From Eledone cirrhosa (lineage: Eukaryota), in assembly GCA_964016885.1 (NCBI GenBank), contig OZ024742.1, forward strand, positions 236,096,001 to 236,160,000: 64,000 nt of DNA, read 5' to 3'. Numbering within the stretch: the stretch's first letter is position 1; every line of letters starts with the position of its first letter. Shown here one piece after another: positions 1 through 63,780 of this stretch. A program made the translations under genes and the position numbers. The notes below the pieces were generated by a model. That model did no database searches, was not told where the DNA came from, and saw nothing but the letters and a program-made list of their open reading frames with translations.

Positions 1-192
1 AAACTCTACAGACGTCGATCAGTATTGGTCACTCAACTTTACTTGTTGTATTTAACATATTGGATTTAAAAGAAAACAATAGGGGTTGTGGCAAACGTCG
101 AGATCATCCGGAAAGAAGAACAAGAAAAAGAACTTTTGTTTACTGAACAAAAACTGTTTTGTTTTACTTGAAAAAAAATAAGAGATTAAAAT

Positions 193-264
193 GGGCTCGT
201 CCGGGATTGGAACCCGGGACCTCTCGCACCCAAAGCGAGAATCATACCCCTAGACCAACGAGCC
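193..264 (-). tRNA. tRNA-Pro(TGG), type A, one T-loop substitution
   Basis: Reverse complement matches canonical eukaryotic tRNA-Pro except T-loop TTCCAAT. A T-run follows downstream. Confidence 0.8.
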
Positions 265-598
265 AGCTACGTTCCGATTAAATACGTACTAGTAATTATA
301 GTGTTAATGCTAGTTGTAAGTGAGACTCATCCTGACTGTTAATTTGGAGAGACATTTTTTGTTTCTTTTATAACTTTCATTTATTTTATCATGTTTTCAG
401 TTGTCGGGCTTTTTTAGGTCGTTTGGTCACCTCTTAAATCAATAGTCCATTTCTAAATCATATCAAAATATCGATAAATCAATAACAAAGCCTCATCCAG
501 TATATGAAGTGGCCAGTTGTTGAAGGTGTAATCGTAGCTGTGCGAATTAACATAATGTGGTTTCTATTTGAAATATAATGTGTATTTATTTACCAGTT

Positions 599-672
599 GG
601 CTCGTTGGTCTAGGGGTATGATTTTTTCGCTTAGGGTGCGACAGATCCCGGGTTCAAATCGCGGACGAGCCC
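599..672 (+). pseudogene. tRNA-Pro(AGG) degenerate, type B
   Basis: Extra Ts (T6) after the D arm, GCGAC in the anticodon stem and a CGCGG T-stem mismatch. Confidence 0.8.
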
Positions 673-1130
673 AAACATTTAGGATATTATTTTCATTTTA
701 AATCTATTTTCATTTTAAATCTATTTTCTGTCGCACCATGTTGACTTAGATGTAATAAACATTTAAACTTATATATTTTCAGGTATCATCTAATCTTTTT
801 TTTTTACCTTTGGGAACTATTAGTATAACAGTCTGTGAAAAAGAGCTCATTTTCAAACAACTAAATACAAGCTCTATTCTGAGTAACAAAAAGTATGTAC
901 ATCTGCTTACGTTTTCGTGGTCTGGTTTATATGTAGAAAAATAATAATAAAACACTACAGACTTGGATCAGCATAGGTCACTCTGTTCTACTTGTAGTAT
1001 TTTACATATTGGGTTTAAAAGGACGAAACAATAGGGGCTGTGGGAAACGTCTAGATAATCCGGAAAGAAAAAGAACGGGAAAAAGAGTAAGAAAACTGTT
1101 TTCTTTAAAAAAAAAAAAATAGATCATGAT

Positions 1131-1202
1131 GGGCTCGTCCGTGATTTGCACCCTGGACCTCTCGCACCCAAGGCGAGAACCATGCGTCTAGACCAACGAA
1201 CA
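1131..1202 (-). pseudogene. tRNA-Pro(TGG) degenerate, type C
   Basis: Anticodon arm intact, but A box (TAGACGC), B box (GGTGCAAATCAC) and acceptor 5' end are mutated. Confidence 0.85.
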
Positions 1203-1606
1203 ACGCATAACAATGCAATTAAATATATATTAGTAATTATAGTTTTAATGATAGTTGTAACTGAGTCTCTATGTTGGAAACACTTTTTTCTTTCTTTTTT
1301 AACTTATGTTGGGAACATTTTTTTTTTGTTTGCTTTTTAATTTTAATTTATTTTATTATGTTTCTACAGATCTAGGATTTTGAGGACACCCGGTCTATTC
1401 TTCAAACTTAATTCAACTTCTCAATCATGTCCAAATATCAATGAATCAATAACATCAACCCAATAATCACAACTGACGCCATAACATTACTATTACACCT
1501 TTTTTATAAAGCATATGACGTGGCCAATTTCAGAAAGTGTAATATATTTGCAAAGTAATATAAACTTACTGCTTTTAGTATATTAGTTTGAACGTATTTA
1601 CCAGTT

Positions 1607-1679
1607 GGTTCGTTGGTCTAGGGGTATGATTTTTCGCTTAGGGTGCGAGAGGTCCCGGGTTCAAATCCCGGACGAGCCC
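1607..1679 (+). tRNA. tRNA-Pro(AGG), type D, 1-nt T insertion
   Basis: Intact A and B boxes, U3:G70, 73 nt, T5 terminator just downstream. Confidence 0.65.
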
Positions 1680-60161: not shown

Positions 60162-60233
60162 TGTTCGTTGGTGTAGGGGCATGATTTTCGCTGAAGGTGC
60201 GAGGGGCCCCGGTCTCGAATCCCGGACGAGCCC
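60162..60233 (+). pseudogene. Degenerate tRNA-Pro-derived copy
   Basis: Heavily substituted. Confidence 0.7.
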
Positions 60234-60489
60234 AAATATCTGGAAATTTTTTTAATTTTAAATCTATTTTCCGTCGCACCATTGTTGACTTAGGTGTAAT
60301 GTTCATTTAAATTTATGTTTTTCAGGTATCATCTAATCTTTTTTTGTACCTTTGGCAACTATTAGTATAACAGTCTTTGATGAAGAAAAAACTTAATTAA
60401 AAACAACTAAATGCAAGCTCTGTATAATTTCTGATTAACAAAAAGTATTTACATCTGTTTACGTTATCGTGGTCTGGTTTATATGGAAA

Positions 60490-62760
60490 CGCCGACCTTA
60501 AACCCATACCCCACCTGATCCTCACTCGCTCCTTGCGGCTTCCGACGCAGACATCCTGTCTGCCATCAAGCCCTTCCCAGCTAGCTGCAGCGAAGGTGCT
60601 GATGGCCTCCGACCTGGCCACCTCACGGAGTTGTTATCCCCACTCTCCGCCGAGGACGGGCGCTGCCTTCTGAGTGCAATTGTAGCACTCACTAATAGGC
60701 TCATCTATGGCGTCCTGGAACCTCATTCCCGAGCCCCCTTTTTTCGGTTAGCCTGACCGCTCTCAGGAAGAAAGAGGGTGGCATACGCCCCATCGCTGTC
60801 TGCAACGTCTTCTGGAGGCTGGCTGCTCAAGTGGTCTGCAAGTCCAACACACATGAAGAATTGGGCAAGGAGTTCAGTCCGGTGCAACTGGGTGTCGGCG
60901 TGTCCAGTGGTTGCGAAGGTCCGCATATGCAACCAGGCAGTTCTTCAATAGCTGCCCATCAGAACCGGCATCCAGGTACTCCAGACAGCTCATTGTCAAA
61001 CTTGACATGAGGAATGCCTTCAACTGTATACACCGCGACTATCTGCTCGATGCCTGCTTCAGCCGAGCCCCTTCTACCTACCTGCTGGCCTTCCTGTCAT
61101 ATGGAGCCCCGAGCATGCTCTTTGTTGCTGATACGGTCAAACTTTCAGCAACTGGAGTCCAACAGGGTGACTCTTTGGGCCCACTCCTATTTTCTTTTGG
61201 CATAGACCACATTGCCCGGAGTATCACAGCCCCTCTCAATGTTTGGTATCTGGGTGGGGCCGTAGAGACTGTCTGCCACGACCTACAATCGGTCGTCACT
61301 GCTCTGGCGGGAATTGGCTTCCAGGTCAACTCGTCGAAGTCAGTGGTGGTGAATGTCAACCACGATGCTGAGAGCTTTGCAGCCTCCGTCTCGAAAGAGC
61401 GGTTCATTCTCCTCCAGGTACAGGTGACCTCCAAAGAGGATGTCCTCATCCTCGGGTCACCAATCCACCCGCCGGCCATTCGCTCGACCATCAGGTCCAG
61501 GCTTCAGCAACTCAAGACCCTCACGAGCCGACTCGGCATGATTGATGCCCACCCAGCTCTCTTCCTGTTGAGGAACTACTTCGCCATGCCGAAGCTTCTC
61601 TATACCACGCATCTCTCCTTGCTAACCTCGACACTTGTATCTGAGCGGCAGCTGAAGAGATATGCAACGTCAGGTTTGACGACATTGGATAGCAACAGGC
61701 CACCTTACCTATCAGATATGGAGGCCTTCGTCTCCGGTCTCCGATCTCGCTGTCTTTTCCGGCGTTTATTTCGTCGGTAACCCCATGCCGCGTGCTCGTC
61801 AACAGGTTTCTCCTAAACACAACGGAACCCACTGTGATCGAGGAACATGAGGTCAGTAGACGTCCCTCCTCCTCCTGCTGACGTCAAGTCCCCCCAGAGT
61901 ATTTGGGATGTCATCCAGTGCAAACTGGCCTCAGACAGGCTAGCACGGCAGCTCGACCATCACCGCCTTGCCTGTTTTCGCGCGGCTTCACAACCCCACA
62001 GCGGTGCCTTGATCCATGCCTTACCCTCCTTCTCCACTGGCACGCAGCTGGAGAACGACAGCCTGCGCATCGGGGTTTCCTGAGGCTTGGCCTCCGGATC
62101 TGCAAGCCACATAAATGTCGCTGCGGATCCACCGTGGACCCTTTCGGTCTCCATCCGCTTTCCTGTGACTACAGTGCCGGCCGCCTTCCACGCCGTGCCA
62201 CCCTCAACGAGGTCATAAAGCCTGGCTTGGATGCTGCAGGCTTCCCCTCCCAGCTCGAGCCGGTGGGGCTGGACTGAGGGGACGGCAAAAGGCCAGACGG
62301 TATGACCATCTTCCCGTTCCGCGGTGGTAAACCCTTCGTCTGGGATGCCACTTGCCGCGACACTTTCTCCATCCGCAACCTGGTGCAGTCTGCGACTAAC
62401 CCAGGTTCTGCTGCACTTCGGGCTGAGGAGGGAAAACTCTACAAGTATCGATCGCTCACCGACAGGTTTGCAGTTGAGCTTCTAGCAGTGGAGACTTCTG
62501 GTGTCCTTGTCCCTAGGGTACCTCCTTACTTACCACCATAGGCGCTGAGCTGGCAAGCCGCAGGTGTGAGCCTATCAAGAAGGAATGTCTCTTCCAGCGC
62601 ATTTCCCTTACCATTCGCCGGGGCCGTGGGGCGGCCAGCGCGTGGGACACCATTTGCTCATAATACAGAGAGATGGCGAGGGCGAGAGAGATGGAGGTGA
62701 TGACAGTGGGAGTTCGGCTTTTCGGTGTACGCACTCATTTATCAATTCTATGTTGCTGTT
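60490..62760 (+). mobile_element. CRE-like non-LTR retrotransposon (RT, CCHC and restriction-like endonuclease), 5'-truncated and inactivated
   Basis: GC-rich island. Motifs across frames: [71 protein letters not shown] and DGKRPDGMTIFPFRGGKPFVWDATC. The catalytic YLDD is reduced to WYLGG, and frameshifts and stops are present. Confidence 0.9.
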
Positions 62761-63095
62761 TATATATGAGTGTTTTAATATTAGTTTTAAATGGGACTCT
62801 GACTGTTATGCTGGAAACATTTATTTTGTTTGTTTTTATCTTTCAGTATTTTCTTATGTTTCTAGATGTTGGGGATTTTTAGGACACCCGTCCATTCTAA
62901 AATCTAAAGTCCACTTCTCAATCATGTCCAAATATCAATAAATCAATAACATCAGCTCAATAATCCTAATTGACCCCACAACATCACACTTTTTATAGAA
63001 CATATGACGTGGCCAATTATTGAAAGTGTCATATTTTTGCAGAATAATATAAGCTGATAGCTATTAGTAATTTAATTTGAAAATATTGGTAAGCT

Positions 63096-63167
63096 GGCTC
63101 GTTGGTCTAGGGGTATGATTTTCGCTTAGGGTACGAGAGGTCCCGGATTCAAATCCCGGACGAACCC
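63096..63167 (+). pseudogene. tRNA-Pro(AGG) variant
   Basis: 72 nt with G39A, G53A and G70A. Confidence 0.7.
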
Positions 63168-63635
63168 AAAGATTTTGAAATTTTTTTTGTTATAATATTA
63201 TAAAGCTATTTTCTGTCGCACCGTAATAAGTAGGCGAAGAAGTATATTAATGTTTTGCAGCAGTGTCGTTGGTATGGGTCTGATCTACTTTGCTTGGGGG
63301 GAGTGAGTCGGTCCCAGTACCAAATCTCGAATGCGCTCTTTCTTGTTTCTCGATTTAATAAACTATTTTTAAATAAGTGTCGTGTTATGTTTAATTCTAG
63401 TAAAGATATTGTTGTAGTACAATGATTCTCACTTTCGATTATATCGGCTGCATGTTCAAAGTACAAATTATCCAGAGTGTATTTCCTGTTTTTCATTTTG
63501 ATAAATGTTGTATTATGTTTGGTACAAGTAATTAATATCTTGATGTTATTAATATGTTTCCATGAAAATTAATGAAATGAAAGCCGAACATCCTTTGGAA
63601 AATATCAATAGTAAATATATTTGTTCAAAATCTGA

Positions 63636-63707
63636 AAATCCTTGTTCTAGAGGTATGATTCTCGCTCTGAGTGCAAGATGTCACAGGTTGAAATCCTAGG
63701 TGAGCCC
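63636..63707 (+). pseudogene. Ancient tRNA-Pro-derived relic
   Basis: Homologous to 30314-30385 and 23315-23386. Confidence 0.65.
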
Positions 63708-63780
63708 TCTTGTTATCCCTTGTACATGTACTTTTTAATTTATGTTTCATATAAGTTCTGATAGGACAACAGAAAATAGC

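What the first reader, a model, noticed from the sequence alone, without database searches (positions are those of the whole stretch)
1..63710. A satellite-like, three-tier higher-order array built from divergent tRNA-Pro gene pairs
Seen: the monomer is a head-to-head Pro(TGG)/Pro(AGG) pair of about 1 kb. It is organised as a 1.93 kb dimer repeated about 9.6 times, then as a 12 kb HOR, and homogeneity falls from left to right while TE load rises. The D-A-B block of the dimer also sits inside the HOR (31400/31927/32368), so the dimer array looks like a young expansion from related material. Every tRNA-like sequence outside the SINEs is Pro-derived. Known: layered HOR expansion is typical of centromeric satellites, and clustered B boxes bind TFIIIC. 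Inference: the locus may be a copy-number-variable proline tRNA dosage array or a structural chromatin domain, and this window may be its edge.
Basis: partly seen in the sequence, partly recalled or inferred. Interest (0 to 1): 0.75.

Follow-up and report, generated by a model that had tools for sequence, protein, structure and literature searches.

The report
Layered proline tRNA gene array
This window is the right-hand edge of a 250-kb tandem array that holds most of the proline tRNA genes found in a mollusc genome, many of them decayed; it likely grew in layers by unequal crossing-over and is likely an ordinary, partly working gene cluster rather than a centromere.

Summary
The array is real, but the window shows only its right quarter. 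On contig C3 it spans about 250 kb with 441 tRNA-Pro-like copies: a 5.03-kb repeat (8 units), a central 1.91-kb dimer (about 67 units, not 9.6) and a decayed 12-kb repeat (about 3.4 units). The two outer layers are 92-96% alike in shared parts, so the layers are roughly mirror-symmetric. Each dimer keeps one intact TGG and one intact AGG gene plus two pseudogenes. 113 of 441 copies pass a strict structure test (13 of 114 in the window). The locus holds 154 of 200 exact core matches in the genome. Genes are conserved over the long term (0 of 72 changes against 17-27% in flanks), but no selection is detectable within the young dimer. A chimeric monomer fits out-of-register crossing-over. Centromere reading unsupported: one locus, small, no flanking satellite; a second Pro array and a Thr array exist elsewhere. 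All intact array AGG genes carry a private U3-G70 pair, which makes expression testable. The scan noted this array and similar Thr, Val, Met and Arg/Ser arrays before on other DNA of this genome.

The parts
1..18663 (.). Right end (9.6 units) of the central 1.91-kb dimer array; unit order D(+, AGG) A(-, TGG) B(+, pseudo-AGG) C(-, pseudo-TGG); array continues about 110 kb left of the window
5451..5522 (+). Example slot D: structurally intact tRNA-Pro(AGG) with U3-G70 and U27-G43 wobble pairs, T-run 4 nt downstream
5968..6039 (-). Example slot A: structurally intact tRNA-Pro(TGG), Rfam 56.7 bits
6374..6446 (+). Example slot B: pseudo-tRNA-Pro(AGG), insertion plus stem mismatches
6886..6957 (-). 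Example slot C: pseudo-tRNA-Pro(TGG), 10-12 changes, not called by ARAGORN
18664..59500 (.). Older layer: about 3.4 copies of a 12-kb block (homologous TGG genes at 23985, 36045, 48098, 57839); 7 of 72 Pro-like copies pass the structure test
27337..31401 (.). Stretch 92-96% identical to most of the 5.03-kb repeat unit on the far (left) side of the dimer array
30931..33053 (.). Relative of the dimer unit inside the 12-kb layer (D 31400, A 31927, B 32368), 83.7-85.5% identity
20235..20472 (.). SINE-like interspersed repeat (75 matches in 410 kb of distant DNA)
38835..39023 (.). Second copy of the SINE-like repeat
59637..60099 (.). 36-bp minisatellite, 12.9 copies, grown from a spacer motif present in about 2.5 copies elsewhere in the 12-kb layer
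60494..62725 (+). Decayed retrotransposon fragment with a reverse-transcriptase stretch (RVT_1, E 6.8e-07), likely non-LTR, inserted in the outer decayed layer
63096..63167 (+). Last ARAGORN-called tRNA-Pro(AGG) in the window; decayed copies continue to about 25 kb beyond the window's end

Best explanation
This is a tandem proline tRNA gene cluster that likely grew from an old head-to-head Pro(TGG)/Pro(AGG) module by repeated unequal crossing-over, with a minority of intact copies likely supplying tRNA while the rest decay. Shown: the module is repeated in three block sizes, the youngest-looking TE-poor block lies in the middle, and related older blocks lie on both sides. Shown: each dimer has one intact gene of each anticodon and two broken ones. 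Inferred: an ancestral monomer duplicated, each copy lost a different gene, and the resulting dimer was then amplified about 67-fold, pushing older blocks outward. Inferred: selection acts on having enough working genes, not on each copy, so newly amplified copies drift. Untested: transcription of any copy and copy-number variation between individuals.
For: Layout and copy numbers. A D-to-C chimeric monomer switches from the D-A spacer type to the B-C type between spacer positions 71 and 93 (15 D-type diagnostic sites and one unassigned before, 37 B-type and 2 D-type after), as out-of-register exchange predicts. One SINE insertion and one deletion recur at identical junctions in 4 and 3 dimers. 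Long-term conservation: the U3 AGG gene has 0 of 72 differences among 8 chosen copies, while flanks of the outermost copies differ by 17-27% (binomial P 1e-6 to 2e-10); TGG genes on C6 equal the C3 gene while spacers are about 65% alike. AT-rich upstream blocks and T-runs accompany intact genes. The locus holds 154 of 200 exact core matches and 113 of the 149 structurally intact Pro genes that I found. A second array of the same module lies on C6 and a Thr array on C1.
Against: No selection within the dimer layer: variant alleles per site are 0.194 in A and D, 0.178 in B, 0.153 in C, 0.154 in spacers (Fisher P 0.26 and 0.57), which also fits a silent array. The 8 copies were picked as intact, and gene conversion limited to the gene could mimic conservation. 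At least 36 intact Pro genes lie outside the array and cover all three anticodons, so the array may be dispensable. Clustered tRNA genes in Arabidopsis are silent despite intact promoters (PMC7544208, abstract and section 15). The central layer is not the most homogeneous: the left 5.03-kb layer reaches 99.6-99.9% between neighbours.
Confidence: 0.65

Rival explanations
1. Silent, neutrally expanding satellite: the young layers are not transcribed; a few dispersed or outer copies do the work and the dimer is a passenger amplification of once-functional genes.
For: No excess conservation of A and D over pseudogenes or spacers among 61 dimers; only 6 of 19 A/D slots in the window's dimers pass the structure test against 80 of the other 115; Arabidopsis precedent (PMC7544208, sections 13 and 15).
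Against: The amplified unit kept exactly the two intact genes at consensus level; only 6 intact AGG genes were found outside against 52 inside; no CpG-decay signature of long methylation (CpG transitions 15 of 102 against 58 of 545 other C/G sites, P 0.23; CpG observed/expected 0.93), though methylation need not be the silencing route in a mollusc.
Confidence: 0.22
2. Centromeric or other structural chromatin domain: the layered array marks a kinetochore site or a TFIIIC-dense boundary.
For: Central TE-poor layer flanked by related, TE-richer layers, as in the layered expansion of human alpha satellite (10.1101/2021.07.12.452052, section 9); the human 1q23.3 tRNA repeat binds CTCF (PMC4041453, abstract).
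Against: Spacer motif at one locus only (78 of 78); about 250 kb; no tandem array over 2.0 kb in 38 kb left and 174 kb right; other tRNA arrays elsewhere; spacers diverge freely (13.5% and 26.4% between monomers).
Confidence: 0.08
3. Assembly artefact: the periodicity comes from duplicated or misjoined reads.
For: Some dimers are identical to one another; read depth could not be examined.
Against: 61 dimers average 97.7% identity with nested shared variants, insertions and deletions; no N in 464 kb; three runs hold 58-62% of the dimer's sampled words, though they may be the source sample. The exact copy number could still be off.
Confidence: 0.03

Closest known systems
Arabidopsis clustered tRNA genes: Pro clusters of 24, 6 and 9 copies and the 27-unit Ser-Tyr-Tyr repeat (PMC7544208; abstract, sections 13 and 15 read)
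   Same: Tandem tRNA genes with interspersed pseudogenes; proline; cluster-specific sequence variants that allow an expression test.
   Different: Here copies alternate in strand, are regularly spaced, are ten times more numerous, are nested in three block sizes and make up most of the Pro genes found; Arabidopsis clusters are same-strand extra copies shown to be silent.
Human 1q23.3 tRNA variable-number tandem repeat, 7.3-kb unit, 9-43 copies (PMC4041453; abstract and outline seen)
   Same: Kilobase units carrying several tRNA genes, tens of copies, genes conserved while spacers are not.
   Different: Human unit is GC-rich and binds CTCF, with variation shown; this one is 34% GC, single-isotype and layered, with variation untested.
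Large homogeneous eukaryotic tDNA clusters (PMC2888827; passages read; PMC12652284, passages read, for plant Pro tandem pairs)
   Same: Clusters of fifty or more members are reported in Nematostella and teleosts; head-to-head and tail-to-tail pairs are recognised classes; mixed-anticodon Pro pairs occur in 33 plant species.
   Different: Most reported pairs are parallel; the passages read describe no nested higher-order structure.
Layered expansion of human alpha-satellite higher-order repeats (10.1101/2021.07.12.452052; abstract and section 9 read)
   Same: Young central layer, related older layers on both sides, insertions accumulating outward.
   Different: Monomer here is a 1-kb gene pair, the array is about 250 kb at one locus, one flank layer is more homogeneous than the centre, and no kinetochore evidence exists.

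Membership tests
Homogeneous tandem tRNA gene cluster | Adjacent tRNA genes under 1 kb apart, same amino acid (definition in PMC2888827) | tested here: met
   Spacing of about 400-520 nt through the dimer layer; all align to the Pro body.
Homogeneous tandem tRNA gene cluster | Contains structurally intact genes with internal promoter boxes and terminators | tested here: met
   113 of 441 pass stems, invariant bases and no indels; 112 of these have a T4 run within 35 nt.
Homogeneous tandem tRNA gene cluster | Genes conserved over spacers | tested here: inconclusive
   Met between old layers and contigs; not met within the young dimer layer.
Homogeneous tandem tRNA gene cluster | Pol III transcription | not testable with these tools
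tRNA variable-number tandem repeat (1q23.3 type) | Copy number varies between alleles | not testable with these tools
   One assembly only; unit gains and losses inside the array are visible but alleles were not compared.
Higher-order repeat array | Multimeric unit more homogeneous than its monomers | tested here: met
   Monomers 71% alike, dimers 97.7%, 5.03-kb units 97.6-99.9%, 12-kb blocks 91-95%.
Centromeric satellite | Roughly mirror-symmetric layers, decay outward | tested here: met
   Left 5.03-kb unit matches 27.3-31.4 kb and 39.8-43.2 kb at 92-96%; repeat cover 37% and 59% in the outer flanks against 0.6% in the centre. Exception: left layer is very homogeneous.
Centromeric satellite | Large array, family present on other chromosomes (recalled as typical, not universal) | tested here: not met
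   About 250 kb; 78 of 78 matches of one spacer motif at this locus; no flanking satellite.
Centromeric satellite | CENP-A chromatin | not testable with these tools
   Needs ChIP or CUT&RUN.

The most novel reading that the evidence does not exclude
Satellite-style layered amplification has taken over a housekeeping function: this one array supplies most proline tRNA, about 90% of the intact Pro(AGG) genes found (52 of 58) are an array-private U3-G70 isodecoder carried to dominance by repeat expansion, and layer copy number varies between individuals and tunes proline decoding.
Probability: 0.2. Interest if true: 0.55.

Novelty: new member of a known kind. Interest (0 to 1): 0.3.

Why it matters
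It is a fully assembled, gap-free example of a gene family evolving like a satellite: duplication, reciprocal loss, re-amplification and outward decay can all be read from one locus. It shows that layered higher-order structure arises in gene arrays and is not by itself a sign of a centromere. Because every intact AGG gene of the array carries a base found nowhere else in the assembly, one tRNA-sequencing experiment can tell whether large animal tRNA arrays are used or silenced, as the Arabidopsis ones are.

Tried and rejected
No reads were laid on the array, so read depth and between-individual variation stay open. Rfam tRNA search of the genome scored only 63 of about 552,000 candidates, so it gives no census; 2 of the 13 stretches fetched from it were Thr arrays, 11 held one or two genes. 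DNA search with a 971-base monomer scored only 4 of 88 candidates. Mistranslation idea: G3-U70 is the alanine determinant, but the pair here is the reverse (U3-G70), and human tRNA-Pro identity rests mainly on the anticodon branch (PMC9976931, section 25 and passages), so I do not claim Ala mischarging. Anticodon-switched copies (Leu, Gln, Ser calls) were rejected as recoding tRNAs: all 113 copies that pass the structure test read TGG or AGG. Methylation-driven CpG decay: not seen. Look-alike stretches in other genomes of the scan: none. Paper searches (listings only unless named) showed no report of a nested higher-order tRNA-Pro array or of cephalopod tRNA arrays; the library lacks most subscription papers and no supplements were read. 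PMC13578239: abstract and outline only, not used for a claim.
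Full report
Setting. The window is G000:C3:236,096,001-236,160,000 in a 3.0-Gb assembly; C3 is 379 Mb. The genome encodes molluscan-type hemocyanin (39 matches to PF14830; best solved-structure matches are hemocyanins), so it is a mollusc. Earlier scan notes call it an octopod; I did not test that further.

Observation. ARAGORN finds 68 tRNA genes on alternating strands, 61 called Pro; Rfam finds 39 tRNAs and no other family. 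Self-alignment gives a 949-base monomer offset at 71% identity, a 1935-base dimer offset at 97.6% over bases 1-18663, and 12-kb offsets at about 96% further right. The 12-kb layer is patchy: pairs of copies align over 3.8-10.1 kb at 91-95%.

The whole locus. I fetched 200 kb on each side. A profile search finds 441 Pro-like copies between 160 kb left of the window's start and 25 kb right of its end, none in the outer 40 kb and 175 kb, and no N; 58 of the 441 differ at 15 or more of 72 places. The periods are 5.03 kb (8 units, neighbours 97.6-99.9% alike), 1.91 kb (about 67 units over 129 kb) and 12 kb. The left 5.03-kb unit matches window 27.3-31.4 kb and 39.8-43.2 kb at 92-96%, so related blocks lie on both sides of the dimer array. 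Interspersed-repeat cover is 37% and 13% in the left flank and left layer, 0.6% in the dimer array, 7-11% in the 12-kb layer and 54-59% at the right edge (lower bounds).

The unit. The dimer reads D (AGG, +), A (TGG, -), B (AGG, +), C (TGG, -): 68 A, 68 B, 66 C, 66 whole D and 3 half D. At consensus A equals the reference gene and D differs only by the anticodon and two wobble-forming changes; B and C carry insertions or stem breaks. The two monomers differ by 13.5% and 26.4% in their spacers, by 10 of 72 between A and C and 6 of 72 between D and B. So each monomer lost a different gene before the dimer was amplified (inference). With a strict test (no indel, all 20 stem pairs, 14 invariant bases), 113 of 441 copies pass: 61 TGG and 52 AGG; 13 of 114 pass in the window, whose dimers are the more decayed edge.

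How it grew. Among 61 complete dimers, mean identity is 97.7% and falls with distance (98.6% for neighbours, about 97% at 30-50 units). One monomer 32.6 kb left of the window is a chimera that switches from D-A spacer type to B-C type between positions 71 and 93; one SINE insertion recurs at the same junction in 4 dimers and one deletion in 3. These fit unequal exchange and block re-duplication, and argue against an assembly artefact. In a tree of 48 plus-strand copies with flanks, intact D copies of all three layers form one clade (98/99), and dimer B groups more weakly (88/80) with the copies at 32369, 44435, 54855 and 20624 (midpoint root, 2 dimer-side and 1-2 left-layer representatives per slot only).

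Share of the genome's Pro genes. An exact 32-base core pattern has 200 matches in the assembly, 154 in this region. Others lie on C5, C6, C10, C13, C24, three small contigs and an inverted pair 57 kb left of the fetched region. In the 16 outside stretches scanned, 36 of 92 copies pass the test (18 TGG, 12 CGG, 6 AGG); this census is incomplete (one C2 match was not fetched). C6:83.21-83.24 Mb holds a smaller array of the same head-to-head module with a 2047-base dimer; spacers are about 65% like C3 while many genes are identical. A Thr array on C1 gives 18 and 16 genes per 10 kb. Arraying tRNA genes by amino acid is therefore a habit of this genome, as earlier scan notes say for Thr, Val, Met and Arg/Ser (only a Thr array was seen by me).

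Selection. For: eight U3 AGG copies from all layers are identical over 72 bases although the outermost ones differ from the rest by 17-27% in 600 bases of flank (P 1e-6 to 2e-10); I chose these copies as intact, and gene-limited conversion is not excluded. Against: inside the dimer layer intact slots carry as many variant alleles per site (0.194) as pseudogenes (0.153-0.178) and spacers (0.154), P 0.26 and 0.57, although diversity is somewhat lower (0.015-0.016 against 0.022 in spacers). Copies are not independent, so this test is weak. The pattern fits birth-and-death with redundancy, and also fits silence of the young layer.

A private isodecoder. All 61 matches to the U3 form of the gene's 5' half lie in this array; the C3 form has 16 matches, 4 of them decayed copies inside the window. 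Human tRNA-Pro identity rests mainly on the anticodon branch (PMC9976931, section 25), so the change is likely tolerated. Its value is as a marker, like the polymorphisms used to show silence of Arabidopsis clusters (PMC7544208, section 15).

Centromere reading. The layering resembles human alpha satellite (10.1101/2021.07.12.452052, section 9), but a spacer motif occurs only here (78 of 78), the array is small, flanks have no tandem array over 2.0 kb, and one flank layer is more homogeneous than the centre. CENP-A was not testable.

Verdict. A real, large, well-resolved tRNA-Pro gene array of a known kind, comparable to Arabidopsis and human tandem tRNA clusters (PMC7544208; PMC4041453, abstract; PMC2888827, passages), with nested layering and a diagnostic isodecoder as its distinctive points. 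Expression and copy-number variation remain untested. Interest 0.3.

Noticed in passing
G000:C6:83.206-83.237 Mb (L048, L059-L061): Second, smaller tRNA-Pro array of the same head-to-head module, with a 2047-base dimer; its CGG genes sit in the AGG slot and share that slot's T27, so they likely arose by a wobble-base switch. The two halves are oppositely oriented.
   Followed up: partly
window 22832, 34892, 46957, 56754; L060 721-7997; L063 5790; L041 8055: A very old Pro-like relic with a CAT or CTT anticodon lies in the tail-to-tail spacer of modules on C3, C6, C10 and C1233, so the ancestral module had a third tRNA-like element; ARAGORN calls one copy Met (L048 4909-4982).
   Followed up: partly
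32.6 kb left of the window (L017): Chimeric monomer with a clean switch between the two spacer types, a footprint of out-of-register exchange.
   Followed up: yes
22.2, 20.2, 18.1 and 0.6 kb left of the window (L018-L020): A 181-base SINE-like insertion at one site in four dimers, making 2.09-kb units.
   Followed up: yes
window 59637-60099: 36-bp minisatellite of 12.9 copies grown from a spacer motif that has about 2.5 copies elsewhere in the 12-kb layer.
   Followed up: no
window 60494-62725: Decayed GC-rich retrotransposon fragment with a reverse-transcriptase stretch; relatives lie 153 kb left of the window and 13.6 kb beyond its end.
   Followed up: partly
L052 3193-3716 (G000:C3:235.839 Mb): An intact AGG/TGG head-to-head pair in inverted orientation about 97 kb left of the array's left end, with spacers 69-81% like the dimer.
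   Followed up: partly
L072, L075-L078, L080-L082: Several solitary tRNA-like genes with anticodons unusual for eukaryotes by my recall (Ala-GGC six times, Val-GAC, Thr-GGT) on different contigs; possibly a tRNA-derived repeat family.
   Followed up: no
G000:C1:173.75-173.91 Mb, C26:21.93-22.02 Mb, C27: Hemocyanin genes in several copies: three runs on C1, an inverted pair on C26 and two units on C27.
   Followed up: no
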